64,000 nucleotides of DNA, taken from contig CAJINV010000003.1 in NCBI GenBank assembly GCA_905178155.1, positions 7,735,882 through 7,799,881 on the forward strand. The letters are read 5' to 3'. The notes beneath the pieces are model-generated. The model made no database searches and was not told where the DNA came from. It saw only the letters and a list, made by a program, of their open reading frames with translations. This DNA comes from Amoebophrya sp. A120. Taxonomy: Eukaryota > Protista > Dinoflagellata. Below, piece after piece: positions 10,405 through 61,715 of this stretch. The position numbers and the translations under genes are program-made. How positions within the stretch are numbered: the stretch's first letter is position 1; the number at the start of each line of letters is the position of its first letter.

Positions 10405-13400
10405 ATGCCTCCTATGAGCAGCGTCATGGACGAGCCAGAGTTGCCAACACCGCAAAAAACCGGGGAGGAAGGCTTTGAACCGGAGGCTAATGCCGGCTTC
10501 AGTACTGCAACGTTTTATTTTCTTGCGATTTCTTACTCTTCTTATTGTTTGTATCTTGAAACGTACTAGCGGTAGAAATTCATTTACCCGAATTCATTTC
10601 GAGAAAGCAGAATTCGCTAGTAAGTGTAAGTATGGTAATGTCAACGCGGACTCACTCTCAAAATTCAGTACCAAATAACAAATCACACAGAATCGCCGGT
10701 GAAGACGCCCGCGGCGAAGGCGACTGATGGATTTTTCAAACTGTACAAGGTGAGCTCCTTTTCTAGTGACCTGGACAATGACTACAACCACATCACGCAG
10801 GAGGAAATTTCCAACTGGGAAACCGAGTACCGCCTGGACAACGGTGCGCAGGAAAAATGGAATCGCATGGATCTCGAAGACAAGCAGCGCATCGTCGCGC
10901 ACGGTACTACATTCGGAATTAATGTGGTTAGTTCGTACAAGAATTATTCCTTCGCTCTAGAAGATGTAGTTGGAATTATCTCATTGACGAATGCAGCACG
11001 ACCGAGTCAGAGTCACACTGCAAAACACCTTGAGAATAATTGCGCATGAGTTCTTGAGTGAGTAGTTTTGTTAACGACGGCTTTCTTGATGTCCTCTCAT
11101 GAATGTGTCTCCACAGGTCCGATCCAGGGTGACAATGCCAGTGCGAGCTTGATGGCGCGCGTCGCGCAGCTGAACGCCAAGAAGAGACAGAAATACGGCA
11201 AGGGCGGCGGAGGCGGTCGGGGGCCCGCCATCTTGCACCAGAACGGCAAGGGACCATACGGCAAAGGATTCCAAGGGAAAGGCTGGAACGTGCCGATGGG
11301 ATTCAAACGTACCTTTCATTTTTGTAGTGTTTGCAGCACAAAGACAAAGTTTGCATCTGACGAGTTTCCTTTCGGGTATCAAAAATTTATGCCTGCACAC
11401 CGCCCTAAGAAATCAAATAACATCAAAAACAGCGTCACGAAGCGGCTGGGACGGCTGGGGTGCAGAGTTCGGAACCGACACCGGAGCCGGCGAAGTCCCC
11501 GTTCTGCGATTGAAGCAAGTGCCGTACCAAGTCAGTGCAGAAGCGATTCACGACTGGTTTGGTCACCACAACAGAAACATCGTTGGCACGGTATAGAAAC
11601 AAGACAAATTTAATATTAGGTGCACGTGCATCGGCTCGTTTGCTTCGGCACTTAGTGGATTGAGCAGAAGTGTTATGCGGATAAATGTTTTGTAGCCGTT
11701 CCAGGGTGCTATCGACATTCAAAATTCTATGAAAATTTGAAAAAAAAGATCCGCATTGACCGGCAAAATGGTGTCGCGCAAGTAGAGTTTAGGAATCTGG
11801 GAATGGCCTACGCGGCAAAGGCTGCGAAGGACTCTGCGCCGTTGAAGGGACATATGGTGGACATCATCGGGCCCATGAAGATGGACGAAAACGGAGGTAC
11901 TGATGGCGTTTTCTGTCCGAGTGTTCAAGAAAGGTTATTGCAGAACGTGCTTTTTCTTTTTGCAGAGCGTGCACTTTAAAACAGGCATGGATGAAAAAAA
12001 ATCTGAAAACCAAATTTGACAGTTGTCGGCAATGTTTTGGAAGGCGAATTGAAGGACTTTTTCGACCACCTGGCAGCGGAAGGCGAGGACACGGAAGCGC
12101 TCAAAACCATATCGCACTGAAATTTTCAAAGCTTGTTGAGTTAATGCTTTCGTTGCGTTTTTCCGTGCAAAACGCTTGGGCAGAATAGTTTTCATGTTTT
12201 CAGTCCGTGCATCCGGGAAAGACAATTCAAGTACTTACTTCTCATGATGGACGATAAGCACAAAACTGCCAACAATGAAGTTTGACTCATCAAGAGGGGT
12301 TTCTTATCCTAGGATACTAGAACAGTGCGGAGATGCAGAGCAAATTTAACGAATGGAAGAACGCGAGGAAGCCGGCGGCGGCGGTCCAGCGACCGGCTGG
12401 AACGCACCGTGCGGCGTATAACCGCGGTATGCCGGTGCCGGACTTCGGATCACCACCCCAGGGCAAGGGCTACGGGTATGGAGAGAAAAAAGTTTGTCAC
12501 AATCACTAAATTGCAGGTTTTGCATTACAAATTTTCTCAGCATCACAAACTTTCCTTGTATTGCAGAAACACTAGGGAAATCCCTAATGAAGTTTGGCTG
12601 TGATGCATTTTTACGCATGACAAACAACAATTTTGTATTGCAAAAATGCGCATGAGTGATCGTGACGAACTTTTTTTCTTTGATAACGGGGGCGCCAAGG
12701 GCAGTAGCTTCGACGACGGTAGCTGGGGCAAGAAGGTATGCATTGCAAATATGTCTGTGTCTGGAAGAATGCATGGATGTTTGTCATGCTTGTCTGGCAT
12801 GACTCTTAAATCTGTTATGCACGTTACCCAAGAGCTCCATTTTTCTGTGATGCAGAGACGTAGTCTGTCATGCAGAATAGGCAACACCTAGAAGCTCAGA
12901 AACTTGTCATGCTGAGCCAGCATCTGTGGCCTCATCATGAGACGCCGCCCAGCATCACAAGTTTCCAGACCCAGACACTTTTACATTTGATAGAAGGGCG
13001 GAAAGAACAACTGGAGCCACAAGAACCGCGGAAAGGGCGACGGCTACAATCAGCGGGGCGGAGGGGACGACTACCACCAGGACCACGACAGCTGGGGCGG
13101 ACACCAGCAGTCCTGGGGCGGGGGTAAAGACGGCGGTTGGGGCAAAGGCGGAACCAACTACAATCAGGACTACCCGATGTCGGACATGCCGGGCAAGGGC
13201 TACGGGAAGAAAGGCAACAAGGGCGGCCAGCAGCACGACCACGGTGGCGGTGGTGGAAAGGAGGGAATGCTGGCCGCGGCGCTGATGCAGTTGCAGAGTG
13301 GCGGCGGCAACAGTGCCGGCAGCTCCTGGGGCGGTGGCAACAACAACGCCAACAGCGGCGGTGGTGACGTACTCGCCGGGTTACTCAGCGGTATGGGAGG

Positions 13401-15500: not shown

Positions 15501-17235
15501 ATGGGCATGTTGGCGGATTTTTTTCTTGGTGCCCCCGACCCAGCGGCTTTGTCATCGCGGAAGAGTGTGGGGTCGGCGAGAATCACGAGTTCGTTTCTTG
15601 AAACATTTTTCGACGTTGCGATTGGGGGAAAGCCGGCGGGACGGATGACGTTCGAGCTGTTTGACAAGACGGTGCCGAAAACCGCTGAGAACTTTCGGGC
15701 ACTCTGCACAGGTACAGCTTTTTCTACCAAGTTCTCTTGCAAAAAAATGTCGTGAAGCAATTGGTTCTAAGTGTTTACGACCAAAGTAGGAAGGCGGTCA
15801 CTTTAGCACCGGACCTAAAAAAATTTCGTGGATGATTTTTAGGTCCCTTGTGCCAAAATAACAGATTTGGATAATTCAGAACTTGCAGAAGAATCAATTA
15901 TTCTGAACAGGTGAAAAGGGCGTTTCGTCGTACAGTCACCTGCCACTGCACTACAAGGGTTCCAAGTTTCACCGAGTGATTCCAGGCTTCATGGTCCAGG
16001 GGGGCGATTTCACGAACGAGGACGGGACGGGCGGCGAGTCCATCTACGGGCAGAAGTTCGCGGACGAAAACTTCCAACACGTCCACGAGGGCCCCGGAAC
16101 CCTCTCGATGGCGAACGCGGGCCCGAACACGAACGGCAGCCAGTTCTTCATCACCACGGAGCACACCCCCTGGCTGGACGGCCGCCACGTCGTGTTCGGG
16201 AAGTTGAAGACCGGGATGGTATCAAATACAAAAATGTCTGGGTCTGGAAGAGTGGAACTTGTAATGCTGTCTCTGGATTCCAAAAAAATCTGTGTTGCAT
16301 GAGTAGCAAAGGGGATGCAATTTTTGCTACGCTGAGAAGGCATTTGTCATGCGGAATAGGCATCAAAAAGCTCTCAAAAAATCTGTATTGCTAGGGTATG
16401 CATCACAGACATCATCGCTCATGCGAAACGTGCATGACAGCTGTCAGAATCTTCCAGACCCAGACATTTTTACAGTTGATAGATGGACGTGCTCCGCAAA
16501 ATCGAGGGCATGGGGTCCGACAGCGGCGAGCCGCAGGACGAGTTGACAATCACGGACTCTGGGGAGCTCGGCGTCTCCAAAGCATCCAGCAACAAGGACG
16601 CGCTCAGCAGCTTTCTCGAGGTAGAAGTAGGTCGTGCTGCGTCTTCACCGGGAGGAGCCACTGATGCATCAATAATTGCTCCTCCTCGCCTCAAGCGCAC
16701 AGATGATTTACGTATCAACAGTTTTCAAACAAGCCGCGGAAAGACCTCGTTCAATAGCGTCGCGGTCACTTCTCAGCCAGACCACGCGCAGCTGCACCCT
16801 GTTGCGGCTAGTACTGCTTCCCTTCTTGCGATCGACACCAAAGCGAAAACTTCACTTTCCAGGTCAACCTCGCCTGAAGGTCTGTTGCAGAAGATATCGG
16901 GACGTCCGGAGTTGTGTAGTTTCGATTCAGGAGGTGCTGCACAGGTGAACTGCCGCCGTAAGGAGCGACAGCACACAAGAAGAGCCTTTTCTTCGTTTCT
17001 TGTCGGAGATAGAAGAAAGACCAGAACTGCTTTTTTGTTTAGCCTGCCTGACTGGCTTACGGGCGACGTAAAACTCACGCCACACCGATATCCTCAACTA
17101 CCGAAGCCGTACTTTGTGGACAGTCACGAACGTGTTTGGCCCCCGCCTGATGACGACATCGAGCCAAAGCCGCCGGAGCAGGAGGGGGACGACTTTATCG
17201 GTATCGACATGGGTCTCCGCGATTTTCGAAACTAA
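15501..17235 (+). CDS. Cyclophilin-type peptidyl-prolyl isomerase with C-terminal extension (at least 3 exons)
   Basis: [36 protein letters not shown]|EKG...[16 protein letters not shown]...[34 protein letters not shown] intron 15712-15910 plus an element intron at 16220-16481. Confidence 0.92.
16220..16481 (+). mobile_element. TIR introner-like element (CCAGACCCAGAC family), 262 bp, TSD GATGG
   Basis: Ends TATCAAATACAAAAATGTCTGGGTCTGGAAG and CTTCCAGACCCAGACATTTTTACAGTTGATA. GATGG at 16215-16219 and 16482-16486. Removal restores cyclophilin [14 protein letters not shown]. Confidence 0.93.
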
Positions 17236-20764: not shown

Positions 20765-20959
20765 ACATGGCAAACCACATCCGGAAACCGGCGGCCAACT
20801 CTTTTGAGTTATGATGCCCTGCCTCCGTAATGGCCATAGGCTCTGAGGGCTGAAGGATTTTTCATAGGACTAGGAAACATGAATCAACACTAAGAAGCCT
20901 TCCCTTGTCTCCCCTTCAATGTGGGAATACTAACTAACGCACTTTGATGCCATCTAGAT

Positions 20960-22830: not shown

Positions 22831-23450
22831 TGATTTTTTTGCTGTGCGCTTTGTGTGTTTGTTGATGGTTTTCAATTTTAATCGTCGTCATGTTTCTTCT
22901 TTTTCGGTTTGTTGTTCAGGATGCTTTATTTTCTATCAACCCTCTAGCACTCATCGGTTCTTCGGGAGTCAGGTAGTTCTATGGAATCAAAAAACGGAAG
23001 TTATCGTTTTCCAGTATGCATAATTGTTTGCCCGATGTGATTTTCATTATTCAATTATGTTCTGTCTGCAGTGTGTGAAGATGCATAGAGGTGACGGGGG
23101 CAATTTGTGTCGTGGCTGTGGCACATGCAACGATAACCAATTGCGTACAATTTGTTAAATCCAGCTCCACAAATTGGATTTTACTGTCCGTCGTGGTCTT
23201 GCTAGATCGGTGGGTCGCAAATTGCCTCGAGCGCTGCATCTGCGTTTTGTGCTCGACTCCTTGCCTACCAGAACGAAAACTGCCAACTGTGTCACAATAG
23301 TCTGATTCGATCGTCTCCAGTGTCATGCAGAAAACGGATCATGGGAGAGAGTTGTCATCATGCCAATTGTAAGAAGTGCCTTACTTCTTATTGCCAACGT
23401 CGAGCAAGTCATACTTTTGTCGTGGACTAAATCGCGATACGCAGTGCACG

Positions 23451-26400
23451 TCATGAGGCAGGTTGAAAGCAGATTGCATTTTGGTAGGGATCCCTATCAA
23501 ATGTAAAAGTGTCTGGGTCTGGAAGATTGCCAGGTTTGTCATCATCATCATGTAGTGGACACCCGCTCCCAGCGCCACAGGTCAAGGATCCCCTCCCCGG
23601 GGGGTGGGCGTGCGAGGAAGCACTTTCGGCGACCCATGATGTCTTTGATGCATATTTTGAATGACCCATGATGTCTTTGATGCATGCCCTAGCATCACAG
23701 ATTTTTAGAGGACTTTGTGATGCCTCTACCGCATGAGAAATGCCCTCTCCACGTAGCACAAACTGGAGTCCTTTTGCTGGTCATGCAATACAAATTTTTT
23801 TTAGAATCCAGTTTAGAATCTTCCAGACCCAGACATTTTTACATTTGATAATCCCTTCCGTCGTCCAAAAGGTCTAGTTCGACGTAAACCTGTTCCAGCG
23901 CCTCTTTGCAGTTACCGATGCGGACGTCGATTGTGCGAGGGTCGTATTTCAGTTTTTTCACCTCGTTCAACGCCGACTCCAGTGCCAGTCGCTGTTTCAT
24001 TAGCTCTGCGTAGGTGCGCTGGCTCTGGTCGATGCTGCCTTGACGGGTGATAATTTCTCCGAACCGGTCATTCAGGTGGTTTAGTCGCACATTTAAAATC
24101 CGGAACTGCTTTGCAAGTGCGAGCAGAATGAATAACACCCCGAATATGGCCCACAAAAAGAGCAAGGTCATGCCGCCCCGCAGTCGATTTTTGAAACTGC
24201 CGTCAAGGATATTCATGAAGACGCCGGGTGCCAGCGTCCCCGCAGCGAAACCCAGCACATTGAAGGACGCTTGCGCCACCGCGCTTGCAGTCGCCCGGAA
24301 GTCGCTCCGAACCTTGTGTCATTTGGAAGCATCACTCTTCGAAAAGTAGGAAAAACTTCAAGTTTTATTCTCGGCATATAGTTTCGCGCTCTGTCTTTGG
24401 GACAGACACCGCAGCCGCAGGGTTGCGTGAACTATGTATCAAACTCTTTGTGTTTGTTGACTTGTGTAGAACAAAAAAAGCATCACGTGTTGTATGAAGC
24501 TTAGATAGCGTACCACGCTGAGCATCATGCCCGTGAGGGCAGGCACCATCGCGCCCCCGAAGAAGAGAAGGAACCACAACAGCACGACGACCGCGTAAAA
24601 TTGGCCCATATTTTTTCCGTGGGGAACAAACGCGGCGGCCACTCCGCAAGCGGTTGCGAGAAGCGCGGAGGTAAGTAAAGCCTGCATGGTGGAAATACGG
24701 GCGCGCAGCCCGTCGTAGCCCCCGATGGAATCGATGAAGAGGCCGCCGAATACTACTCCCAGCGCGGGGCCCGTGGCGGCTACAATCGAAAACGCTATAA
24801 TGACCGTGATCTTAAACGACTCCTCCTTTTCGCCAGGCGGTCGAAATACCTCTACCGTACTATCCAGGGGAAAACAGAAAGAAATCAGTGCACGGTGGCA
24901 ATTTTGGAACCGAAGCCCGGTTGGTTTTTCTTCTTGCACGTATCGCTATACATACAAGTTGAAGTGTTTTTTATTTCTTCTTTCACTACCGTTGCTTGTT
25001 GCACCCTTGCCGATTCATGCACAGCAGGGAAATGGCCGTATCACAAAATCTTTCCGGCATAGAAGTAGATGGTCGCCCAGTACTGCACGCCGGTAACGAC
25101 GAAGTACAGTACCGAGAGCGTCAAAATGCACAGCACGAAAACTGTGTTCCGGCGCAGCCGCATCACGCGCCGCAGCATGGACGGAGGCGCGGGGGTAAAT
25201 TGAGTGTTTGTTGAGAGTGTACTAATGCGAAGGTTCCTGTCCTTGTTTAGTTCATTTCTTCCGAGGGCGGAAGACGTTGCGGAGCTAGAGTGCGCCAGCA
25301 TCTTGTTCGTTCGCACAGGATCATCATCCGCTGCTTCCGGGCTTTCCTGTGCCGTTCCCTCCTGGTCGGCCGGGGAATGAGCTTTATTCGACCCTTCAGA
25401 AATAGGGGGGAAATCGGGGTGATCGCGCGACGAGGGCGGCTGGTTGCAGCCGTCCAGATGGGCAACGATGTCGTCGAGCGATCCGTTAGTTTCGCCAGCG
25501 GGCGTGTTCTTCTCGCTTTGCCACATGCGCTGCAAGTCCACAAACTCAAAGCTGCGATTGCTCTCTAGGACCGAAGGCGAATTCATCAGCTTGGCCTTCA
25601 GAGTCATCGAACAGAAAAACGATTCGCAGTTGCATCTCAGTATCTACTTTGGTGCCGCACGGACGGCCGCAGCAGGATTCAACATGCAAAAGGATCCACA
25701 ATTCGTCATTTTTTGATGTCGGGCTCGTCGTCCTGCACAAAAAGATACGTGTAATACATCGAGATGCGCACCATTTTGTTTTTCGGATACGGGTGCGCGG
25801 TGCAGGGCCCGACGAACGCGACGCCTGCGTCGCCGCACTTTGCCTTACGTTATCCGTGTTGTCGGGCTTCCTTTTGGCGGGCGAAATAAACTGATCCCGC
25901 CATTTGGCCATCGCTGGAGAGGACCATGGATTGTCGACGAAGCGCACGGACGTGAAAAACAGGAAAATGAGCAGGATCCCCAGGGAGATGCATTGGACGT
26001 GTGTATGGAATTTCACCGCTGCAGGAACGAAGTGTTCGGCTTCATTTTTGTTTTCATCTTCTGATCAACATGTTTGCTATAACGAGCACAAGAAGCACAT
26101 GCCTCACACGGACACGGTCATTGGTTTTCATATTTTGCACTTCAATACATGTAGTCCGGATCAAATCTCGAAGTAGAGTTGTGGCTGACTTTAAAACGAG
26201 GAAGTTTCAGTTACTCGGCATGACCTTCGAGCATTGGCAGGGTGCCACAAGGCCTCCTTCGTTCTGCTGCTACTCCTTCAGCTCCTTAACTCATGGCGTA
26301 CGACCAGTGAACCTCGGCGGAGACCAGCAAACCGGCTACGAGGTACCTGAAAAAAAGGAACGTGCCAGGTCGAAATCTGCGTGATAGCATCATGAGCAAT

Positions 26401-29181: not shown

Positions 29182-30765
29182 TTACATGGATTCCCTGCGT
29201 CCAATTTCTGCACCAGCGGTACTATTGGTTGCAATGCCGGTCTGGCTGCGTGTCGGATCTCCGAAAAGCACATCGAGGCTCCCTTTGGTCAAAACAAAAC
29301 GCTTTCGGCCCGCTTCGGTCCTTCTGCTACTCACCAGAGCTAGCGCTTCGGAAGAGTCGCTTCGTGCCAGAGGCCCCCGCGTGAGCCCTCCAGCATGAAA
29401 GACTGCGCCGTGGTCCGACATAGAAGCTGGGGGCGGTTGGTCTGCTGCCCGGGAGGAGGAGCCTTTGTCTCCCCCAACTCCGGACGAGGTTTTGTGCTCG
29501 TCACCTTGCAAAATGAGCGCCTCGCAGTTCTCCGGGTTTCGCATGCGCAGGAAGGTCTCCCAGTTCCAGTTCATCCATTTCATGAGGGCGACCCGCATGG
29601 CTAAGCCGTGGGTAACGATCAGGGCTACTTGTCCCTCCATCTCGGGGTGAGACCGGAAGTCGCGCCAGATGGTATGAAAGAAGAGACTCACCCGGTCAAA
29701 CACGTCGGCGCTGCTCTCGCCGCCCCGCGGCCGCGAGAAGAACCGGCCCGCGGACATGGACGTTTCTTCGCCGGTCCAGCCGAACGGCAGTTCGCGCTCG
29801 CGGATGCGCGGGTCCTCGATCACCCGAGCGATCTCGATGCCCTGCTCCTGCAGCGACTCCGCAACGTGCTGCGCGGTCTGCCGGGTGCGCACGTAGGGGG
29901 AGCAGTAGAGAAAGACCTTCTTGTGTACTTTCTGAGTCGTGCTCGCATTGATCATTTTCTGTACTTGTAGTTGCAGCTCGTTTGGAGGGACATCTGCCGC
30001 TCCGACGGGGGCGCCGCTTTTAATATTTCTGCTTGAGGACGAGTTTGCTGTGCCTGTAGTCCTTGCGGTCGTGCAAGATGTAGCTGTACTCGTCGTCGTG
30101 TTGGTTTTATTAGTTGTTACGGGAGGGCCGCTGCTGGTCAGGGTCGTGGCGCTCGTTTGCAAGTTTGTCGTCGTCGCAGGCTGGTGGGCACCAGCACCTT
30201 CTTGTTGCAGGAGCAAAAGTTCGTCGAGCGTATTCGCGTCAGCGGGTGCTTGTTGATGCAGTTTATGGATGACTTTCGCGAGCCGCTGGCCCGCCTGCTT
30301 TGCCTGCAGCACGCCCGTTGGCGTGAGTTCTATGTAGGTATTGAGAGGAAAAATCCCCCCTCCCCATATTGAAAAGGTAAGTTTAGAAAAATTTGCGTTG
30401 CGGATTTGAGGTCACAAATCACATCTGTCTTGCAAGAAGACAAGGGCAGAAGCTTCCGCCCCATTATGAAAGCAATTTGCCATGCTGCTGGGCCTAAAGG
30501 GGAATCGTTTGCCATGCTGAACAGCTAGACACGTGCGCCTCTACCTAGCCTGGGGACCTGGCCGCAGTGCCTCTCTGCAATACAAAGCTGATTTGTGGCC
30601 CCAAATCAGCATCACAAATTTCCGTTTTGATATGGGGTGGGAGGATTTTTCATTTTGATAGTAGGGGTCGCCCTTGGAGGAGTAGAGAGACGGGTCCACA
30701 TTGGCTTCGCTCTCGCCGTGACGCAGGAACACGATCGCGGACGGGTTATCCTGAGTAAAATCCAT
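29182..30765 (-). CDS. Histidine phosphatase / phosphoglycerate mutase family protein, 2 exons
   Basis: FLRHGESEAN...KGDPY|IELTPTGVLQAKQAG; YCSPYVRTRQTA; EDPRIRERE; GGESSADVFDRV; LIVTHG; NPENC. Confidence 0.9.
30339..30660 (-). mobile_element. TIR introner-like element, 322 bp, TSD GTAGG (+ strand)
   Basis: About 44-bp imperfect TIR: TATTGAGAGGAAAAATCCCCCCTCCCCATATTGAAAA versus TATCAAAATGAAAAATCCTCCCACCCCATATCAAAAC. GTAGG at 30334-30338 and 30661-30665. Removal rebuilds the conserved D..LT..G..QA motif. Confidence 0.92.
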
Positions 30766-31074
30766 CGTCTACACCCCAGATTTTATTTCATGCAATTCTG
30801 CATGCTCAGGATGTTTCTCATGCGCAGCTTGCTTCATGAGGAGCATTTGTTTTGGAACAATTGGAGTACGGCTTGCTATAACCAGCATGAAAAGAACGAT
30901 CGCGATTTTTTGTGACACGCACGCATTAGGTAAAAATCTTGACTGCGCTGCGAGCAGTCCACCCGTTGCGCAACAGCGAAAGCGTGTTGATGTGTGTACG
31001 TACACAAGCCACCAAGTTCTTTTTGCTAAGCACCCATCTTGACAGACTATGGGGTGATGTCGTGGGCCGCGTTT

Positions 31075-31344
31075 TTACTTCGGATACGGGTAGTAGCTGC
31101 GGTGGGCGTCATGCACGTGCTTCACCTGCTTCTCCAACTCGCCCACTCGCTTTTGAAGTGTGTGCGTGAGGTTTCGGTCCCGAAAAAGCAGCACCGAGAA
31201 AAATGCGAGGCACAGGAGTGCGACAAGGGAGGCCCCGATCGTCGGGACGGCGCGCAGATCCAGCGGCGGGAATAATCTTCCCGCATCGGGTTCGTGCAAG
31301 AACACCGAGTCGACAATGAGGTGCCACATGTCGCTCAGATCCAT
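31075..31344 (-). CDS. Small single-pass membrane protein with coiled coil
   Basis: 89-aa ORF with hydrophobic IGASLVALLCLAFFSVLLF followed by a heptad-like segment. Confidence 0.45.
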   Translation of the reverse strand: MDLSDMWHLIVDSVFLHEPDAGRLFPPLDLRAVPTIGASLVALLCLAFFSVLLFRDRNLTHTLQKRVGELEKQVKHVHDAHRSYYPYPK

Positions 31345-32287
31345 AATCGTGGTGCTCCTCTCTACAATTCATAACACCATCGATGGAATAATCATAACTC
31401 CACAATTCAGAACATATTCAGATCATCCTCCTCCATTGCTGTTTCATTCGACTGGTTGCTCGTGGAAGTGGCTGCGAGATACCGGACAAACGCTTCAAAA
31501 TCGTCGTCCGTTTCTTTTGGTGGGATGATTTCCACGTTTTCTGGGTGCGGTAGTTCGAAAATCCGGTCCGGGCCGGTGTAGACAGACGCGGAGTCAGATA
31601 AATCAAGTTCTTCGTCGAAAAACAACCGTCTGCGCGTGCCGTTTTGCACCTGTACCAGGTGAATTCCAGAGCCGCTGAAATTGGTTGCGAAAGTACTGCT
31701 CGTCCCGTTGGAACTCGTAGTTGTCGTGTTTTCCCCTAGTGAAGAAGATGTTGGCCCAGAGTCGTCGTCGTCAAACAGGGATAATGATAAACGGCTGCCA
31801 GCGCTGGCGTTTGTGGTATTACCGGAAGATGATGTGTTGAAAGCGCTGAAGTCTTCGTCTTCATCCACCAGCGAGGTCCGGGAAGCAGAGGTACTAGTTT
31901 CATTAGTAACATTGGTCGCATTCACATCAATCGTGCTATCGACCACAGCCGCCTCCTCCTCCTATCCAAGAAAAAAACATTGTAGGTGTAACTTTTTTGG
32001 AGGAACAGCATTACAAATTTGTCTGGCATGACAGCAAAAACCTGTCATGCGCAGATAGTATGTGAAAACGCCCTTTGATGGGCCCTACGATGCATGCCAA
32101 GCACGACAGACGCAATCACCTTGCATGTTGCGCATCACAAATTTACACTAACAACGTTTTTTTCCTGCATACCTCCGGCGCGGAAACTACCGTCGTCGTC
32201 CCCCCGTCCACACTGACCGCCAGCACTGACAGTTTCCCGCATCGGGTTCGTGCAAGAACACCGAGTCGACAATGAGTTGCCACATGT
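31278..32287. repeat. 54-bp direct repeat pair (31278-31331 and 32234-32287), one mismatch
   Basis: TTCCCGCATCGGGTTCGTGCAAGAACACCGAGTCGACAATGAG[G/T]TGCCACATGT read at both positions. Confidence 0.9.
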
Positions 32288-32893: not shown

Positions 32894-34828
32894 CTAAAGA
32901 AAGTCGGTTTCTTCCTGCAGTAATTGGTCGTCGCGGACGAGGAGCGGATCGATTGCGGCTGTTTCCGGAAACAGCGCGCTCGTTTCATTACAATGAAAAA
33001 TGCCCCCCACTCCAGCACTTGGCAGCATTTGTATATGCAAACTTTTCCAATAGAAACATTCCCCGTCTTGCATATATCAGCATCACAAATTTTCCATGCT
33101 GAATAGCTCAAATTTGTGTTGCAAAGGAGCCCAACAGCAGGCGGATCTGCTATGCAGCAGATGCCTTGCGTGCCTAGATTCTGCATCAGAGAGGCTCAGA
33201 GTCCTTTCATGCAAGACAAAAACAAAAAGCTTTCATTTGGAAACTTTGCATGAGAAACTTTTGCAAGATCCGGGGTGGGGGCATTCTTCACTTGAATACG
33301 TTTGATGCCGACACTCCCGGCCGTAGTACACGGGCTGGGAACTGGCGTCCACCGGGCGCTGCCGAAATTCGTGGTAGTTCCAATCGGGGTCGTAGCGGTC
33401 TAAATAGAGGAACTCCCCTGACAGCGACACGCCCGCAACGACACAGAGCACCGCGTCGCCAACGGCGACGGTCTGTAAGCGGCCCAACGCCGACGGCGTG
33501 CTGGTCACGCCTGTGCGGCCAAGATTCAGCTTCCAATACACCGCTTTGTTGCGCGCCGCGTGGCTCCCGGACTGCGCGCAGCACAGCGCCCAAAGGACCG
33601 TGCCGATCTTGGCCGCATCGCTTGGCTTGCTTAGATGCAAGTTGAACTCCGGGTATTGCAGGCACTGTTTTTCGGTTTGCGATACGATCTTCCGTTCTAC
33701 CGCCCTGGCTGCGTTGTGTTCCAGTTCCAGTGGTTCGAAAAGATCAGGACGCCGTGCTGCTAACGCACGGTTTTGGCGGTCGTACAAGTCGCGGAGGCGG
33801 TGACACCCATGTACTGCATACTTCACGAGTTCGCCAGTGAGCGGACGCCTCCGCCACAGTGTGCTGTCCTCCGCCATCTGACGTTTTACGCGCTGCAGAT
33901 ACGACGTCGAAGTGCTGCTGCCGTAATTTATATCGGGCTTTTCATCTTCTACTTTGGAATGTGCAGGCCGCGTGATGTCAGCACAGAAATCCGATCCTAC
34001 TGACAAAGATTGAGTGGCGCAGGATGGAAGGGTTGATATCATTGCAGCACTACCTTCAGCGGTTTCTCGTTCTCGCAACACTGATGTGGCACCGGTGCGA
34101 CAACTTTTGTCCATACTGCTGTTGCCCGTCTTACCGAAGTGGTCCGGTCTACTTGGGGAAATAAAGTGATCATTTTCACAAAGGAAGGAGAGGGCCTCTT
34201 GGAAGCCGGAATGCGTGCTCGCTGGATGGAGCAGTGCGTGCGCCACTTGGGTATCGTAGACTGCCCGAAGGCGGATGTGGTGCTGGTGCCGAAGCGCCGC
34301 GGCGTCTTCCCGACAGTCGTGTACAACTTTAACTACGGAGGCATCCTCCAGAAGGGTGCGGAACGCAGCGACTACTTGTCCATTTGCCGCCAGGGCGTCT
34401 ACGAGCCAGCACGATTTTCGAAGCTCTTCAACAAGACCTTCGCTTTCATCATGCGTCCGAACGCACGAAGCCGCCGCACTACGGTCACGCGTTTCCATCA
34501 CGCTGCACGGAGCAGAGGGTAGTTCTTGCATGGCGCCGCAGTCTTGTTCTACTTTCGCGCCGGTTTTCTGCATCCTCTCGATCTGTTTGTCTTCATACTG
34601 ATGGGCGGGCGCTTTTTCCCGGGGTGACAGAACGCAGATTTGAAGGCTACACAGCTGTCCAAACCGACCTAGTGCAACTCCCTCGCAGTCGAGTCCGATA
34701 ACGCGTGCCATGGAACGTATTCGCCGCGCGGCACGGGCGGCCTGCGCGACGGTGGAAACCAAGTGTACCTTCAACATGACCTGCTCAGAGAGATCTTCGT
34801 AATCGTGCGCAAAGTCTGACGGCTGCAT
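32894..34828 (-). CDS. DEDDy 3'-5' exonuclease domain protein (EXD1/Egalitarian-like), 2 exons
   Basis: VIGLDCEGVALGRFGQLCSLQI; KVVHDCREDAAAL..VYDTQVAH; LWRRRPLTGELVKYAV. Last exon ..HQTSALFPE..TDFL* follows the element. Confidence 0.83.
32986..33298 (-). mobile_element. TIR introner-like element, 313 bp, TSD CGTTT (+ strand)
   Basis: Ends CATTACAATGAAAAATGCCCCCCAC and GTGGGGGCATTCTTCACTTGAATA. CGTTT at 32981-32985 and 33299-33303. One terminus is CAT rather than TAT. Confidence 0.85.
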
Positions 34829-36809: not shown

Positions 36810-38425
36810 TTAGTTACCCGCTCCCTTCTCGTCGACGAGGCCTTGCGTGATCATGTCGCGCATTTGCATGTCGAGGGGGTCGTGTTTGTCGAGTGGACCC
36901 AAAAGGCTGCGAAAGGGACGCCGTCTTGCGGGAGCTTTTGGCGCTGTGTTTTTCCCACCTCCGAAAAGCTGGGCAAATAGCCCGCCAGCAGCAGGTATCC
37001 AAGAAAAAAACATTGTTAGCGTATTAACTTTGTGACGCGCAAGAACGTAAGCGCGTTTTCACGTACTATCTGCGCATCATGACAAGTTTCATCTGCTCTC
37101 GTGCCATAATGCTGTTCCTCGAAAAAAGTTACACATAAGATCTTTCTTTCTTGGATAGCAGGGGCTGCAGGTTCTGCGCCCGGCGCGTGCCTTTCCACGA
37201 CCTCGGGAACTTGTGTTTCCTCGGGGCCGATTTCGAGGAACACCACTACCTGTTCGGGCGTCCGCGGAACGGGAAAGTGGTCGTGTTTCAGTATGCTCCA
37301 TATCCAATTTGTCTCCGCGACGGATACCTGTCGATTTTTTGCCCCCTTGTCGCAGACAGAAGAAACGTCGAGAAGGCAACTGCGCTCAGTGCAGTAAGCG
37401 TCATGCATGCATCAGGAACTACAGGGGAGCCTAGTACAACCGAACTGCTATACTATTTGTTGAAGAGGCAGATAGTATTGAGAATGCTATTCCTGTTTCT
37501 TTTATAGTTCAAAAATAAGTAGTACCGGGTTGGTGTAGGTTATGTGATCTTCGGACGTCGCGGTCGGAAGGTAGTGATACCGAACTTTCGCTTTGCGTTC
37601 GAGCGGTGGCTCTGGTCTCCGTCTGTTGTTCGCCGCGATCACAAAGAACAAGATGACCCCGAGCCAGAGAGCGACACACGTTGCCGTCAGCAACTGGCAA
37701 AAACGGTTAAACCGGCGCGGCTTCGTGCCGGTCTTTCTCCCGGAAGAACCGGGCCCGAAGGACAGGGAGCGGCGGAAGTTTCCTTCCTCGTCGTCCTCGT
37801 CGGAACTCAAGAACAGGTCATCCAGGGAGGTGCGTGACAGCTTCGAGTACATCCTGCTGGCATCAACATACTGACCGCTGGCGCCCGAGCGTCGCCACGA
37901 GGCCACACTTCGTGCCGTTCGTGCTTGGGAGGCCGTTGCGGTTCCACGAGGGGCGGCCCCGAGTGCAGTTGTACTTCGGACGGACTTCGCCGCCTGTGTT
38001 CCTCCGCGACCGCGATCTCGATCTCCCGGCGCCCGCGGGCCAAGTATACTACTACTGCCGGCCGCGGCCGCTCCTGTTCCAGCACCGCCGCCATGCGTCT
38101 TGGCGTTCTTTCTGTTGTCCTGTGCTCGCCGCAATGACTGCTCCGCCTCATCTTCCTCCGAGCTTTGGTACAACAGGCTCGAGCGAGTTGGGTCGTGCGG
38201 CCCGTCGCCAAAAGTGTTCAGGTCCTCGTCGTCGGAGCTGCTACTGGCATCGAGGTCCTGATTGCGACGGTAGCACCAGGGAAACAGCAGCTTGCAGCAA
38301 ATCGTCCAGGGCGCGGGCGGTCGAGCCGGCCCGGCTGTGGGGTGTATTGACCTGGCCGGCTTCGATCGCAGCACGCGCGTTTCTCGAACTCCTGGCCAAT
38401 CATCGCTGTCCGACGACGCCATCAA
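36810..38425 (-). CDS. Hypothetical single-pass membrane protein, multi-exon
   Basis: ORF 37502-38425 has a low-complexity N-terminus and one TM segment. Downstream exons join across the element at 36996-37157 (EPAAPA|AGGLFAQLFG). Confidence 0.55.
36996..37157 (-). mobile_element. TIR introner-like element, 162 bp, TSD GCAGG (+ strand); same end family as 31963-32171
   Basis: Ends TATCCAAGAAAAAAACATTGT and TCTTTCTTTCTTGGATA. GCAGG at 36991-36995 and 37158-37162. Confidence 0.88.
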
Positions 38426-38877: not shown

Positions 38878-38940
38878 TGTCGCATCGGCACGACCACGAC
38901 CACGAAACTATGTCGCATCGGCACGACCACGACCAAGAAA
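38878..38940. repeat. 33-bp-period tandem duplication
   Basis: TGTCGCATCGGCACGACCACGACCA at 38878 and 38911. Confidence 0.8.
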
Positions 38941-45936: not shown

Positions 45937-46525
45937 GCTAGTAGAGCCTCTTTGGGTTTTCGACTTCGTCTACGTTGCTCCTCTTGATACCTACCTACGA
46001 GTCATCATCTCGGTGCTTGTTTTAGACAACTACGACGAGTGAGCACTGCGTAAAAATGAGTTTTGCGTCAATATCTGGAGGCGTGCCTGAAATCATGCAT
46101 GAGTTGTTCTTACCATATCATTCCTGCAACTACGAGGGAGCTGATGCAACGACCAATGTGGAAAATTGAGCAAAAGGACGAGTCACGCGACGACAGACTG
46201 GCACTTTTTCACTTCGCTTGTACTGCTGCACGAAGCCTTCTCTTTTTGTGCAGCAGAGCATCTTCACGGAGCGGCGCTACTAGTATCTAATCTATCAGGA
46301 GCCCCCTCTTCGGGCAAGAACAACATCAAGCTTTTCTTGTAGCATGTGAGTTTTCACAACCACGACAGAAGAAAACCCGGTTGCGTCAGATCTTCGAACA
46401 AATCAGGATCATGCAATTGGCGCCGAGGAGCCGTCCGTGGCGAACACCAGTGGGGACATCGTTAATACCGGGACCAGACAATGACGATGACAATTTTCAT
46501 CTTTGGCTTCGAAATCCTCGATCGA

Positions 46526-47976
46526 TTATTTTGTAGTTCGACCAGTGCTGCTTGTGTTCGCGGCAGGGTGCAGAGTTTGGAGCTTCTGCTTTACATCCTG
46601 TATGACAGCAACTGAAGTGCTGGGGTTCCCCTCAAAAATAGCCAGCGAGGCGCGTATATGAACTGCAAAAGTATCGCACTCGTATAAATGCATATACAAA
46701 TTTTCTCAGCATGAGAAATAAAATTTGTAATGCGGATTTACCTTCGGAAAAAGTTTGTAATGCATGACTGCAATACGAATACGATACTTTTGCACAGGAT
46801 AGCGTAGTGCGTCGACCGCCTCGGACTGGTAGGAATTCCCCTTCAACATGTACACCGTTCCCATGGCTTTAAGCGTTCGGGCGAGCTGAACTGACTGCTG
46901 CCCATACAGACCGCGCTCCAATTTCCTTGTTTGATTTTTTATCAATCAAGATTGTTTGAGTTCAAGGTATATATAAGATGAGCTCACTACACAATATACT
47001 AGGTCGACAAATAATGATCCAGGGCCTCGCTCTCGCCGCACGCACTTCGTTTCTCAGAACTAGGTACCACCAAGAGAAAGAAGAGGAACGCAAATTAACA
47101 AAATTAATACTGGACGTCCGCGAGGTATTCGAGAGCTTGGTCGTGCTCACGTCGTTTTATGAGGAGCAGCGCCAGCTCGCGTTTGATTTCGACCATGCGG
47201 GGGTGGTGCGCGTCGTGGTTTCGCAGCAAGTGCTCCACGTCACGAAGGCGGTCCAGTGCGGTCTTCGTGTCGGTCCATTTGGCCAGGCGGAGCGCCGCGT
47301 CCGTGGCGAGGTTGGGGTATTTCCCAACTTTGATCACCTTGTCGACGACCGACTGCTGCAGCGACAAGGCCTCCTCCTGGTCTCCGGCCAGGTGGTGGAC
47401 CCAGGCCATATCCAGCCACAGCAGGAGCGTCTGTTCGTGCTCCCACCCGAGACAGTGCTCGCGGATTTCCCAGGCCTGCGAGAGGTGCTCCAACGCTGTG
47501 CTGTACTCCTTCCGCGTGGTGGTCACTTTGCCCAGCAGTTCGTACGCGCGCGCGAGCTGCAAGTCCTCGGGGCCGTAGGCCTGTTTCAGCAGCGTGGCGG
47601 CCTTGTGCAGGCACTGCAGCGCGAGCTGATAGTCCTTTCCCTCTGCGACGTAGGCGAACCCCTCGGCCAGGGCCAGGCTGCTCCCGAGCCGGTGCGAGGG
47701 GCCGTTGTCGTAGATCTGGCTCTCCACGATCTGCTGCCCGTAGTGCACGTGCTCCAGGGCCTGCGCCACGTAACCCCCAAGACTGTAGGCCTCGGACAGC
47801 AGGCAGTGCTGGTGGCACGCGGCCGCGATGGGAAGGTCGTGCACGTCCACCAGCAGCTGCGTACTGGCCAACTGGTGGATCCGGCACTCGATCACGCCGT
47901 CCCGGTCCCCGACCGCCTCCAGTTCGGCCACTTTGCGCTCCAGCGCGTCTATGGAGCTCAGCGGGTGCATCATCAC
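46526..47976 (-). CDS. TPR-repeat protein (TTC23-like), about 3 exons
   Basis: Repeats such as LARAYELLGKV..KEYSTALEHLSQAWEIREHCLG and LARTLKAMGTVYM. The final exon DALR|ASLAIFEG follows the element. Confidence 0.78.
46657..46801 (-). mobile_element. TIR introner-like element, 145 bp, TSD GCGTA (+ strand)
   Basis: Ends TATGAACTGCAAAAGTATCGCACTCGTAT and ATACGAATACGATACTTTTGCACAGGATA. GCGTA at 46652-46656 and 46802-46806. Confidence 0.88.
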
Positions 47977-48961: not shown

Positions 48962-50297
48962 CTAAATTGTCAGCAGGGGCCGACGGCGCAGGAGGTCCTC
49001 CTCTTGCCGCCAGTTGTGCATCACCTGGCGGTGGATCAGCAGGGGGAGTCTCCCGCCGTTGAATCGTAACTCCTTCTGGTTCACCAACCGGTCCTGCGTG
49101 GGGCGGCGGAAAATGGGGTGGGGGTTGTCTGGAATCTCCAAAATCCACACTCTGTTTTGGTCGTCAAAAATCCAGGTCGGCGGCAACTCGTAAACGAGAA
49201 CGTCTCCCGAATCTCGGCGGAGCTGCAGGCGAACGTGGTCCATGGAATGCGGGGGCCCGTACATTTTGCCCAGCTTGTGGCTGCTGTCCCCCAGGGGCCA
49301 GTCCCGCAGCTGTTTCTGCCACCTTTCCAACTCCTCGGCCTGCTGCTTCCGGCGACTCCGCTCGTAGCGCTGCCGGCGGTCGTGGCCCTCCACGCCGAGG
49401 CGGGCTCGCTCTCGCAGCGCGCGCTCCTTCGGGTCCACCGAGCTGCCGGGGGGCCCGCGCAACACCCTCGCCACCTCCTCCCGCAGCAGCGGATCCGCGA
49501 CACCGGCTGCGGCTGCCTCTGCGCCGGCCGCCCGTTCCTTGTCCGCCGCTTCTTCCCGCAGGCGCTTGCGGTCCTCGGCAAAGGCCCCGTACCCAATGGG
49601 GTCGTCGAACCGGGGGTCAGCGGCCCCCTTCGCGACCAGCCTCTTCCGCGGGTCGTATGGGTAGCGACCCCCGGGGGTCTTGCGTTGGTTGATATGCATT
49701 GCAAATATCGATCTGGGTCTGGGAAAGGACGAACTGGTACTGCGTGTTGCGGGCCCCACAAATTTCTGTCTTGCAAAAGATGCCAAACTTTCTGGCCATG
49801 CTGAGAGCGGGTTTCTCATGCACCAGAGTAGGCATTTTTACCAAGGGGCTCCAGAAGTTGTTGTCATGCTTAGCCCTGCGTAGAAGTTGCAGACTTTGAC
49901 TTTTCGGCACTTGGAAAACAAACTGAAATTTCGCAAGCTTCCAGATCCAGACCCAGACATATTTGCAATATGCATAGTTGAAGTCCGGGAACAAGAAGGG
50001 GCCTGTCCTCGTAAATTCCCGGTCTGCGCTGATGTCCACCCACTTTCCCTTGTCATCGTCGTACTGCCACTCCGGAGCGCCCAGCGGCTTCTTCAGCGGA
50101 ACGCGTTTGCTCGGTTTCCCGAAGTCGTACGGTGCCGTGGAAACCTCGGTCGCGCCCCTCCGCCCCTTGCCACCGCGAAAAAGTGCATTCGACCACGCCG
50201 GCGGCGGTCGCTTTTTTCTTGGTGGAACGTAGTCTGGCTGCGAGTGTGGCTTTTTCACCACAAAGTTGCTGGTCGGGTACCCCGCCTGAACAAACAT
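48962..50297 (-). CDS. Hypothetical basic Pro/Arg-rich protein, 2 exons
   Basis: ORFs 49617-50297 and 48962-49819 join in frame (FPDFN|QRKTPGG) when the element is removed. Confidence 0.7.
49693..49976 (-). mobile_element. TIR introner-like element (CCAGACCCAGAC family), 284 bp, TSD GTTGA (+ strand)
   Basis: Ends TATGCATTGCAAATATCGATCTGGGTCTGG and CCAGACCCAGACATATTTGCAATATGCATA. GTTGA at 49688-49692 and 49977-49981. Confidence 0.92.
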
Positions 50298-59424: not shown

Positions 59425-59624
59425 TTGCTTATCCTGTTGTTTAGTATGATGTCTCGATGAGAAAATGAAACAGCAGTCGGGAAGTAAGTACTTACTACAC
59501 ACGACTGCCTTGAAGTTAGTTGTCATGCTTGCCCATCATCTTCGGCGAATCTATTTTGCATGATTGCCGATGCCGATCGTAAGAAGAGAAAAGCAAAAGC
59601 GGCTCGGGCGATGAAAGATAAGCA

Positions 59625-61715
59625 TTACATACTTACCGCCATGAGTGCCATCTTGTCTTGTTGTTTTCTCATGTGCTGCTTGAGCCTTTCCAGGTAGTCG
59701 AGCCGGCCGAGAAGGTCCTGGGAGTTATACACCTCGACGTTGGTGCCGGAGAGGAACTCGCACGTGTACACGAGGAAGTACTTGCTCGGGACCAAACCAC
59801 AGACGGAGGGCAAGCCCGGATCCGGCGACTCGGAGAGAATCACGCGCTTCAGATCGCTGGCCGTGAGCGTGCCAAACTTGATCTGGTGGGCCAGGAGTTT
59901 GGACCGTTTTGCGATTTCCTCAAAGATCGCCAGTGTGTCGGAGACCTTGAACATGATAACCTCGCGCGACTTATCGCCGTAGGTTTTCGGGTCGTGCGCG
60001 AGGAATACCGTGTTCGCGGTCTGCAACAAGAGTTTCGATACCGTGTCGACGTCGTATCCGAGTGCACAACTCCCCCTCCCGCTCAATGATATGAATGAAT
60101 GCCTTGAGCAGCAACAGGAGCAAGGACCGGACGCGAATGCAGTGTCTGCATGTTAAATCCACACATGGACTGTAGTCCTTTTTATGGTTCCGTAACCTGT
60201 GATGCAGGCAGTGCTAAAAGGCAAGGGGTGGGCGAGTTAATGTGTTGTGCATGCCAAATGAGGGGGAGGGGGAGCTGTGCACTCTGGTAGGTCGTAGCCG
60301 GTGAGGATGGGTGCGAACGTATCCTGTGTAAAAACGTCCCATAAATATCCAGAGTTGTTGTCATGCTGAAGGAGGAATTGCAGTACTACAATTTGCACCC
60401 CACCTCTGCCCTAGGCCTGCGCTGTCATGCAGATCTGCAATTGCTGGAACACGTGCAACGCGCATCCCGCCCAAGAACAGAAGAGTATTTTCAGTCGTAT
60501 TTTTGCCCTGTAACGATCCTGCAAATAGAGCAAGGAGATGGCTTTATTTGTGACGCGGTTGTCCTTGCTAACCTACACTACAATCGAGCGCAAAACGTGT
60601 CGCGCGTGGGTGACTCCCAAATTATTTGTGCTGCAGAGATTGATACCAATCACGGACAATCATGGGGTGGAGACGTTTTTAGTCATGGGATAGAGCATGA
60701 TGTGGCGTACCGCGAGCATCTTGGGGATTTTTTTGAGGCAGTTGAGCACCATGTTGGCGCTGTCTCCCCAGGAGCAGAGGTGCACGCGGGGAATTTTAAG
60801 CGTTTCCAGCACCACCCGGATCACGTCCACGTCGAAACTTTTCCACTTGTCCGGCGAGCAGCGGCTCATGGAGCCCACGGTGGACTTGGAAAACCCCGGG
60901 AGATCCAGGAAGATGCAGTTGAAGTTGTTCTTCACCAGGTGCGGGGCGAACTTCATCCAGCACCAGCTGGTGGTCAAATTTTCGTCCGTCCGCCAACCGG
61001 GCAGAAACATGACGAATTTCGTACTCTTGCGCGCCTTGGCCACCTGGCTCATGGGCACGTCCCCGCTCTCGTACATTTTCGCGGTGGCCATGGTGGCCGG
61101 GTCGTACACCGTGCGCAGGTAGATCTGCAGGTTCAACCCCGTGACCACGTCGATCTTTTTGTTGCGGATCGCCTCCTTCAGGAAAATGCCCTCCTCCGGG
61201 GTGAAGTAGGTGCTCTGCAGCACCTTCCCGTCCGCGATGGTGACGGACAGAGTAAACACGTCGCCCCCGACGTCGAACACCTGAAATTGCTTCGACATGC
61301 GGGCTCTGCGTGGGAAATATCGACCTGGGTCTGGAGATATCAAAGCGCACACTTGTGACGCGTCCTGGTGCCGGTCACACAAAAATTTCAATTTGTCTGG
61401 CATGCGTTGCGATGAATGATGCTATTCCTGGCCATGCTGAATTGGGTGTTACTTTTCATGCAGAAGTGTAGGCATTGCTAACGCGTTCCCGCCGTCGAAT
61501 CTGTGATGCTAGCCCCTGCATTCCACATATTATCATACCTGTTGTATAGAGGGCATGGACAAGCTGCGTGACAAACTTCTGCACTGTTCCAGACCCAGAC
61601 ATATTTGCACTCGATACTGGTCTAGTGCGGTCCAAAAGTTCGTATTTGGTATTGAGTTCTCTGCGCCAAATGCTGCGGCGGTCGTCGGGATGCCGTGTCG
61701 AAGTAGTTGCACCAC
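59625..61715 (-). CDS. Alpha/beta-hydrolase-fold protein, multi-exon (59625-60086 may be a separate gene)
   Basis: VMFLPGW..SWCWMKFAPHLVKNNFNCIFLDLPGFSKS..VLETLKIPRVHLCSWGDSA. Confidence 0.55.
61305..61616 (-). mobile_element. Older member of the CCAGACCCAGAC family with eroded end and TSD
   Basis: TCTGCGTGGGAAATATCGACCTGGGTCTGG ... TTCCAGACCCAGACATATTTGCACTCGATA. Interior resembles 49693-49976. Flanks CGGGC/CTGGT match at 3 of 5 positions. Confidence 0.8.

What the first reader, a model, noticed from the sequence alone, without database searches (positions are those of the whole stretch)
12472..61621. Exon-invading TAT...ATA TIR elements with 5-bp TSDs that must be removed as introns
Seen: at least 11 elements of 145-356 bp (starts 12477, 12737, 16220, 23495, 30339, 31963, 32986, 36996, 46657, 49693, 61305) interrupt coding sequence. 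Ten have an exact 5-bp duplication and every duplication is different. Several TIR families that look unrelated share only the terminal TAT/ATA. Deleting an element plus one TSD restores the frame, including conserved cyclophilin and phosphatase motifs. Established: introner elements exist in several eukaryotes, and repeat-bounded non-canonical introns are reported in Amoebophrya. Inference: these are non-autonomous DNA transposons mobilised by one transposase type. I do not recognise TAT ends with a 5-bp TSD as the signature of a standard superfamily, and no transposase gene lies in this window.
Basis: partly seen in the sequence, partly recalled or inferred. Interest (0 to 1): 0.9.

Follow-up and report, generated by a model that had tools for sequence, protein, structure and literature searches.

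The report
Amoebophrya transposon introns, exactly excised
These short hairpin-ended insertions in genes of the marine parasite Amoebophrya A120 are its already published introner elements, likely mobile DNA, and they appear to be cut from the RNA at a fixed distance from their ends without the usual splice signals.

Summary
The elements are real. Ten of the 11 listed have an exact 5-bp duplication; the eleventh (61305) lacks one and lies just upstream of a start codon. I found eight more. The window is Amoebophrya sp. A120 (100% protein matches). These are its published introner elements: Farhat 2021 describes inverted repeats starting TAT plus an A-run with 3-5-nt direct repeats, and Gozashti 2025 lists one A120 family as '5-bp TSD, TA/TA termini'. 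Verdict: already known.

What the tools add: (1) In a second assembly the duplication is 5 bp in 226 of 291 element pairs, with near-random targets, which points to one type of transposase. None was found. (2) A probable RNA contig and deposited proteins show removal of the element plus five bases, although GT-AG is available no more often than chance (24 of 268). (3) Old elements whose two 5-mers have diverged fix the cut: one base before TAT and four after ATA, even with no repeat left. This rests on five introns in two genes and is unique for one. I did not find it stated as a rule in print. It makes the splicing mechanism testable.

The parts
12110..12316 (+). Old element, TAT...ATA, 5-mers 1/5 alike; intron 12109-12320 under the fixed-offset rule, now ending in AG
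   Evidence: Loose end of run X3 joins 12108 to 12321; inverted repeat not significant
12477..12685 (+). Element, 209 bp, exact 5-bp duplication, in a glycine-rich gene
   Evidence: 92% copy in L058
12737..12992 (+). Element, 256 bp, exact duplication, main family; exact removal can also be written as GT-AG
16220..16481 (+). Element, 262 bp, in the cyclophilin gene; exact removal gives the deposited protein, not the +1-codon GT-AG form
   Evidence: hairpin z -5.6
23495..23850 (-). Element, 356 bp, near the 3' end of the MFS transporter gene; downstream join unresolved
   Evidence: X3 contig stops matching at 23851; deposited model resumes at 23261
24861..25061 (-). Old element, 5-mers 0/5 alike; the case that fixes the cut uniquely (intron 24857-25062)
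   Evidence: X3 piece ends at 25063 = record 808; Leu612 shared with the A25 and AT5 orthologues
25605..25789 (-). Old element, 5-mers 3/5 alike; intron 25601-25790
26004..26288 (-). Old element, 5-mers 0/5 alike, decayed inverted repeat (p 0.008); intron 26000-26289
   Evidence: deposited protein and contig length
26935..27168 (-). Element, 234 bp, 5-mers 4/5 alike, in the MFS motif
   Evidence: X3 piece resumes at 27169
30339..30660 (-). Element, 322 bp, in the histidine phosphatase gene; no GT or AG in any exact register
   Evidence: hairpin z -8.2
30747..31086 (-).
31963..32171 (-). Element, 209 bp, exact duplication
   Evidence: X3 piece ends at 31957, and the 92 unlisted letters match 32172-32263 in length
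32986..33298 (-). Element, 313 bp, exact duplication, one end mutated; near the C-terminus of a 3'-5' exonuclease gene
36996..37157 (-). Element, 162 bp, same family as 31963 in the opposite orientation
46657..46801 (-). Element, 145 bp, in a TPR-repeat gene
49693..49976 (-). Element, 284 bp, exact duplication
60055..60289 (-). Element, 235 bp, 5-mers 4/5 alike, same family as 26935
   Evidence: removal gives a gap-free alignment to the A25 orthologue
60320..60692 (-). Element, 373 bp, 5-mers 3/5 alike
61305..61616 (-). Degenerate element of the main family, 6 bases upstream of the ATG at 61298; probably 5' UTR

Best explanation
These are the Amoebophrya A120 introner elements: short insertions with TAT...ATA inverted ends and a 5-bp target duplication, likely non-autonomous DNA transposons moved by an unfound, likely integrase-related transposase, which appear to be removed from transcripts together with five flanking bases. 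Shown: the anatomy, a fixed 5-bp duplication across families, near-random targets, both orientations, many copies, and exact removal in a probable RNA contig and in deposited proteins. Shown for five old introns in two genes (uniquely for one): the cut lies one base before the 5' TAT and four bases after the 3' ATA, and the two 5-mers need not match. Inferred, mobilisation (about 60%): an integrase-like DDE enzyme acts in trans, binds the shared TAT-N7-AAA end and makes a 5-bp staggered cut. Inferred, splicing (about 55%): the paired ends form a stem that holds the two sites together, and a modified major spliceosome reads N-TA in place of G-TA and takes the acceptor at a fixed distance from the stem. 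Because exactly five duplicated bases leave with the element, an insertion leaves the protein unchanged, which would let the elements fill exons.
For: Identity: window exons match A120 proteins at 100%, and the published signature is TAT, seven bases, three or more A, with 3-5-nt repeats. Duplication: 54 of 61 anchored pairs; 226 of 291 pairs chosen without regard to flanks are exact at 5 bp and 32 more match 4 of 5; 275 elements against 1, 0, 0 in three shuffles; 234 different 5-mers among 272. Removal: one X3 contig's listed piece limits and total length are reproduced exactly only by the one-before/four-after cut, which also gives deposited P0122 with no mismatch over 880 residues; the other five registers give 2-5 mismatches. 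Element plus 5 (or the same length modulo 3) best restores a coding frame in 201 of 302. No need for GT-AG: 24 of 268 allow exact GT-AG removal, 7% expected; G before TAT on the sense strand is 0.32 against 0.30 in flanks (n 71). Orientation: 41 same, 35 opposite pairs. Stems: z -5.6 and -8.2. For the spliceosome: 18 of 23 hand-picked GT-AG introns start GTA; the predominant A120 non-canonical donors visible in Farhat Table S4 (list seen only in part) have T second; all but six of 89 spliceosomal proteins were found. For an integrase-like mover: A120 family 38 has TA/TA ends, a 5-bp duplication and Copia/Gypsy-like ORF homology; IS3EU/GingerRoot have TA..TA ends.
Against: No transposase or integrase family in 113 window ORFs or 140 locus ORFs, no long coding copy among 275 elements, and Farhat 2021 found none in A120 and argued against general transposase mobilisation. 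No near-identical copies in my sample: 0 of 270 at 98% or more, 11 at 95% or more. The RNA evidence is assembled contigs of a run only guessed to be RNA, not reads, and the strand is unseen. The register rests on five introns. A codon-model test on 17 imperfect repeats in the second assembly was inconclusive, and the A25 orthologue cannot decide the register at 60055. The deposited model at 23495 does not use exact removal. Old elements are still removed although their whole-element fold is no better than shuffled (z -1.5 to +0.1), which weakens a strict stem requirement. U1 was not found in A120. The second assembly may be the same strain. No empty DNA site was seen.
Confidence: 0.8

Rival explanations
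1. Same elements, but removed by a dedicated non-spliceosomal system: a structure-guided endonuclease and ligase that measure one and four bases from the paired ends, as is suspected for Euglena non-conventional introns.
For: Either orientation works; no GT or AG is needed; fixed asymmetric offsets parallel the Euglena rule of fixed spacers around paired motifs, whose machinery is unknown; U1 is missing.
Against: The cut places T at +2 and A at +3, as in the host's GTA donors; old elements with weak stems are still removed; one old element has acquired a terminal AG; tunicates splice such introns with an adapted spliceosome (review).
Confidence: 0.3
2. The elements spread through RNA (reverse splicing or reverse transcription of the excised intron) or by a non-DDE route, not by a cut-and-paste transposase.
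For: No transposase found here or by Farhat 2021, who favoured copy-paste; the excised intron is an abundant RNA hairpin by inference.
Against: Both orientations relative to the host gene and a fixed 5-bp duplication of random sequence are what a staggered DNA cut gives; reverse splicing should keep sense orientation (established knowledge).
Confidence: 0.12
3. The elements are ordinary GT-AG introns whose sites are borrowed from the duplication, as in other introners.
For: Exact GT-AG removal is possible at 12737 and 31963.
Against: Possible in only 24 of 268, at chance level; 30339 and 26935 offer no GT or AG yet are removed exactly; at 16220 the available +1-codon GT-AG form is not the deposited one.
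Confidence: 0.03
4. The elements are excised from DNA in part of the life cycle, like ciliate internal eliminated sequences, or are assembly artefacts.
For: Short inverted-repeat elements with TA ends in exons recall eliminated sequences (recalled); run X3 is only guessed to be RNA.
Against: The X3 contig also lacks two GT-AG introns, so it behaves as cDNA; contigs of the presumed DNA run X1 run into the element ends from unique flanks; the same families occur in a second assembly.
Confidence: 0.04

Closest known systems
Amoebophrya sp. A120 introner elements (Farhat et al. 2021, PMC7789003; read sections 10, 11, 12, 16, passages and parts of the supplement, figures not seen)
   Same: Same genome; inverted repeat starting TAT, seven bases, three or more A; direct repeats; hairpin; removal as non-canonical introns; 29,850 copies in 1,954 families reported.
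   Different: Nothing in kind. The paper gives repeats of variable 3-5 nt and variable cut positions. Measured from the TAT/ATA ends, I find 5 bp nearly always and one register in five informative introns. Their remark that four repeat bases lie upstream of the 5' end may already reflect this.
A120 introner family 38 (Gozashti et al. 2025, PMC12130899; read passages and 43 of the 58 A120 rows of supplementary file 8)
   Same: '5-bp TSD, TA/TA termini', TIR DNA element, generates introns.
   Different: About 810 bp with ORF homology to Copia/Gypsy; the window's elements are 145-373 bp with no coding match. Its sequence was not compared with them. Most other A120 families seen are classed 'TIR DNA, unknown'.
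IS3EU/GingerRoot and Ginger1/Ginger2 DNA transposons (PMC10045372 and PMC2836005, passages)
   Same: Integrase-related cut-and-paste elements. IS3EU/GingerRoot end in TA..TA; Ginger2/TDD make 4-5-bp duplications.
   Different: IS3EU/GingerRoot make 6-bp duplications; Ginger ends are TGTNR with preferred targets. No transposase is available here to place the elements.
Euglena non-conventional introns (PMC12501133, abstract and passages)
   Same: MITE-like, paired ends, no GT-AG, cut sites at fixed spacers from the paired motifs, majority intron class.
   Different: Motif CAG/CTG with spacers of 3 and 5-6 bases and a purine starting the next exon, against TAT/ATA with 1 and 4; unrelated lineage.
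Fritillaria, Micromonas and Polarella introners (review PMC11282704, passages)
   Same: TIR plus target duplication elements that became introns on a genomic scale.
   Different: Micromonas and similar introners carry or borrow GT/GC and AG; Fritillaria has preferred AG-AC/AT sites. A120 elements need no fixed terminal dinucleotide.

Membership tests
Amoebophrya A120 introner elements | Lies in the A120 genome | tested here: met
   Three window exons match A120 proteins at 100%
Amoebophrya A120 introner elements | Inverted repeat starting TAT, seven bases, then three or more A | tested here: met
   A at 0.88-0.93 in positions 11-13 (sample anchored on one family's pattern)
Amoebophrya A120 introner elements | Direct repeat of 3-5 nt at the exon/intron borders | tested here: met
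   5 bp, exact in 11 of 19 window elements
Amoebophrya A120 introner elements | Repeated in families across the genome | tested here: met
   34 clusters among 270 elements; 12 of 16 window elements tested have near-full-length relatives
Amoebophrya A120 introner elements | Removed from transcripts as non-canonical introns | tested here: met
   Probable RNA contigs and deposited proteins; contig level only
Non-autonomous TIR DNA transposon (MITE) | Terminal inverted repeats, fixed-length target duplication, short and non-coding | tested here: met
Non-autonomous TIR DNA transposon (MITE) | A cognate autonomous element with a transposase | tested here: inconclusive
   None in the window or in 155 loci; the whole genome was not available
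Non-autonomous TIR DNA transposon (MITE) | Empty orthologous site with a single 5-mer in a related strain | not testable with these tools
   Only protein-level colinearity with A25 and AT5 orthologues
Ginger1/Ginger2 | TGTNR termini | tested here: not met
   Ends are TAT
Ginger1/Ginger2 | Preferred target (CCGG/CCGT, or AT-rich RTATAY) | tested here: not met
   Near-uniform 5-mer composition
IS3EU/GingerRoot | TA..TA termini | tested here: met
IS3EU/GingerRoot | 6-bp target duplication | tested here: not met
   0 of 291 pairs at 6 bp, 226 at 5 bp
Canonical U2 intron | GT(GC)-AG borders | tested here: not met
   Available in 24 of 268 (29 with GC), near chance
Canonical U2 intron | Lariat with branch point; dependence on U2/U5/U6 | not testable with these tools
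   Needs lariat sequencing or inhibition
Euglena-type non-conventional intron | Cut at fixed spacers from paired terminal motifs | tested here: met
   One and four bases in five introns; works alike, no shared ancestry implied
Euglena-type non-conventional intron | N3-CDG ... CHG-N5-6 signature | tested here: not met
   Ends are TAT/ATA

The most novel reading that the evidence does not exclude
A120 has a second splicing code, N-TAT...ATA-NNNN, read as a ruler from the paired element ends by a non-spliceosomal or U1-free machine. Its five-base excision is matched to the five-base duplication made by a single undescribed integrase-like transposon superfamily, so every insertion in either orientation is silent.
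Probability: 0.3. Interest if true: 0.75.

Novelty: already known. Interest (0 to 1): 0.38.

Why it matters
The elements themselves are published. How an organism with no detected U1 removes tens of thousands of introns that lack GT-AG is still open. A fixed cut measured from the element ends, independent of the duplication's sequence and of orientation, turns that into direct tests: a genome-wide register count on introns with diverged repeats, lariat sequencing, and spacer mutants as done in Euglena. It would also explain why a transposon can fill exons at little cost. The constant 5-bp duplication narrows the search for the missing transposase to integrase-like enzymes.

Tried and rejected
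No whole genome was on hand, so there was no genome-wide scan, no search for an autonomous copy and no empty-site test. No RNA holder listed on record. The two raw-read RNA runs laid, X9 and X10, gave 18 and 5 reads, nearly all partial, and say nothing about this strain. In one search the joint table was filled by repeat-to-repeat joins from X1 (15 shown, 578 not), so junction evidence comes from the piece and loose-end tables; read-level junctions were not obtained.

Ten solo inverted-repeat ends in the loci proved to be mutated, truncated or unpaired short elements, and none showed a long copy. The five elements over 420 bp gave no integrase motif; only ORFs of 225 aa or more were scanned with Pfam. 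Two viral contigs held one 19-base match each and were not followed.

A codon-model test of which repeat copy is kept, on 17 imperfect elements, was inconclusive. The idea that the host's GT-AG introns are decayed elements was not supported: 1 of 23 hand-picked introns has ATA at the expected place (some of those borders are unverified). A first model of the transporter transcript had one canonical intron misplaced by 2 bases and was corrected. My first guess that 61305 interrupts coding sequence was dropped. Three look-ups of earlier findings gave nothing relevant. Paper searches showed no paper stating the fixed register or naming the splicing machine or an intact A120 transposase; subscription papers, figures (Farhat Fig. 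3, S19-S23) and 15 A120 rows of Gozashti file 8 were not seen.
Full report
Observation. Ten of the 11 listed elements have inverted ends and an exact 5-bp direct repeat at the stated places; the one at 61305 does not. A scan for both TAT ends, an exact 5-mer and an inverted repeat gave 10 hits in the window against 0-1 in each of 12 shuffles. A scan that did not ask for TAT gave 9 hits at 5 bp, 8 of them these elements, against 0-2 in 10 shuffles, and no TAT-ended class at 3 or 4 bp. I added 30747-31086, three elements with imperfect repeats (26935, 60055, 60320) and four old ones (12110, 24861, 25605, 26004). The total is 19, covering 7.6% of the window, and the 11 exact repeats all differ. 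The two elements folded in detail form end-to-end hairpins (z -5.6 and -8.2). The old ones fold no better than shuffled sequence.

Source. Three window exons match proteins of Amoebophrya sp. A120 at 100% (accessions). Farhat et al. 2021 (PMC7789003; sections 10, 11, 12 and 16, passages and supplement parts read, figures not seen) report that over 60% of A120 introns are non-canonical. They describe introner elements with inverted repeats starting TAT, seven bases and three or more A, 3-5-nt direct repeats and 29,850 copies; U1 and transposases were not found. Gozashti et al. 2025 (PMC12130899; passages and 43 of 58 A120 rows of supplementary file 8) list A120 family 38 as 'Ginger, 5-bp TSD, TA/TA termini' with ORF homology to Copia and Gypsy elements, while noting that it lacks the ends expected of Ginger. 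The finding is therefore a known system.

The duplication. A pattern from the main family's end found 157 stretches in the part of the metagenome collection scanned (13 of 64 parts); all 155 loci are from one assembly prefix, which may be the same strain. Of 61 anchored end pairs, 54 have an exact 5-bp repeat. Of 291 strong end pairs chosen without regard to flanks, 226 are exact at 5 bp, 32 match 4 of 5, and none is at 6 bp. There were 275 elements against 1, 0 and 0 in three shuffles, with 234 different 5-mers among 272. They fall into 34 clusters; 11 of 270 have a copy at 95% or more and none at 98%. In the presumed DNA run X1, summed depth is near 30 on unique bins and 1,100-110,000 on bins with elements (not a copy number). 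One duplication length across unrelated-looking families, random targets and a shared TAT-N7-AAA end point to one kind of staggered-cutting enzyme (inference). No transposase or integrase family matched 113 window ORFs of 135 aa or more or 140 locus ORFs of 225 aa or more.

Removal. Deposited proteins show element plus five bases removed at 16220, 26935, 30339 and 30747, and this keeps motifs aligned with homologues. At 16220 a GT-AG cut adding one codon is available but is not the deposited form. In the loci, element plus 5 best restores a coding frame in 201 of 302, against 49 and 52 for plus 4 and plus 6 (this test is blind to multiples of three). Run X3, guessed to be RNA, holds a 2824-base contig over the transporter gene. 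Its three listed pieces and its length are reproduced by removing two GT-AG introns and four elements with five bases each. Another X3 contig fits exact removal at 31963 by length, and a loose end joins 12108 to 12321. The raw-read runs X9 and X10 do not cover this strain. At 23495 the deposited model resumes further downstream, while exact removal would end the protein 12 codons later; this is unresolved.

Splice signals. Exact removal through GT-AG is possible on either strand for 24 of 268 elements, with 7% expected; allowing one extra codon, 56 of 268, with 18.6% expected. On the inferred sense strand the base before TAT is G in 32%, as in the flanks (n 71). Related elements lie in the same orientation to their host genes in 41 pairs and in the opposite one in 35 (88 of 302 elements could be oriented). 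Canonical sites are thus not needed.

The register. With identical repeats the cut cannot be placed, but old elements with diverged 5-mers place it. Testing all six registers on the four transporter elements, only a cut one base before TAT and four bases after ATA gives the contig's piece start (25063 at record 808) and the deposited protein with no mismatch in 880 residues; the others give 2-5 mismatches. The residue made at the decisive junction is a leucine also present in the A25 and AT5 orthologues. The 12110 intron allows this register or the one next to it, and 60320 favours a cut within two bases of TAT. Two of these introns have 0 of 5 repeat bases alike, so the cut does not need the repeat. 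The predominant A120 non-canonical donors visible in Farhat Table S4 have T second, which agrees, though CT-AC there may be antisense GT-AG. Limits: five introns in two genes, unique for one, contig-level data, and an inconclusive test on 17 imperfect elements elsewhere.

Mechanism. I commit to non-autonomous DNA transposons moved in trans by an integrase-like enzyme (inferred, about 60%) and removed by a modified major spliceosome guided by the paired ends (inferred, about 55%). For the spliceosome: the cut puts TA where the host's donors have it (18 of 23 hand-picked GT-AG introns start GTA), nearly all spliceosomal proteins are present, and tunicates give a precedent (review passages). The main rival is a structure-guided endonuclease-ligase. 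Euglena non-conventional introns follow a similar fixed-spacer rule with unknown machinery (PMC12501133, abstract and passages). Spread through RNA is less likely given both orientations.

Family placement. The elements are members of the A120 introner class and work like MITEs. They are not members of Ginger1/2 (TGTNR ends, preferred targets) or IS3EU/GingerRoot (TA..TA ends but 6-bp duplications) on the features tested, although these are the nearest superfamilies.

Verdict. Already known. The constant 5-bp duplication and the fixed asymmetric cut refine the published description; I did not find the cut stated as a rule in six paper searches, with figures and subscription papers unseen. Interest 0.38.

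Noticed in passing
window 20900-22900: AT-rich stretch (GC 0.39 in the 22-24 kb bin) where gene orientation switches from all + to all -; it holds a roughly 230-bp repeat at 21680-21913 with further copies in run X1.
   Followed up: no
window 6676-9546 (+): One long ORF joining an amidohydrolase domain to an M20 peptidase domain.
   Followed up: partly
window 1609-1814 (+): GT-AG intron with ATA exactly four bases before its end and a weak inverted repeat (p 0.055); possibly an element decayed into a canonical intron. The only such case among 23 checked.
   Followed up: partly
window 31278-31331 and 32234-32287: 54-bp, 98% identical duplication near the starts of two neighbouring minus-strand genes.
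   Followed up: no
window 55111-55151: Near-perfect 41-bp palindrome inside a long intron of the calreticulin gene.
   Followed up: no
window 23262-23850 (-): The deposited transporter model uses a long last intron, whereas exact removal of the 23495 element would end the protein after 12 more codons; the gene model may need correction.
   Followed up: partly
L020:505-1608: 1104-bp element with a different TAT-ended inverted repeat and exact 5-bp duplication; its longest frame (238 aa) has no Pfam match.
   Followed up: partly
loci L001-L155: Elements start after the first base of a codon in 38 of 71 oriented cases (18 and 15 in the other phases), which is phase 0 for the intron under the fixed register; a mild C-N3-G target preference may explain it.
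   Followed up: no
L011:2-4652 (-): Gene joining a DNA-repair metallo-beta-lactamase domain to DNA ligase domains.
   Followed up: no
window 43645-45969 (-): PARP gene with WGR, regulatory and catalytic domains.
   Followed up: no
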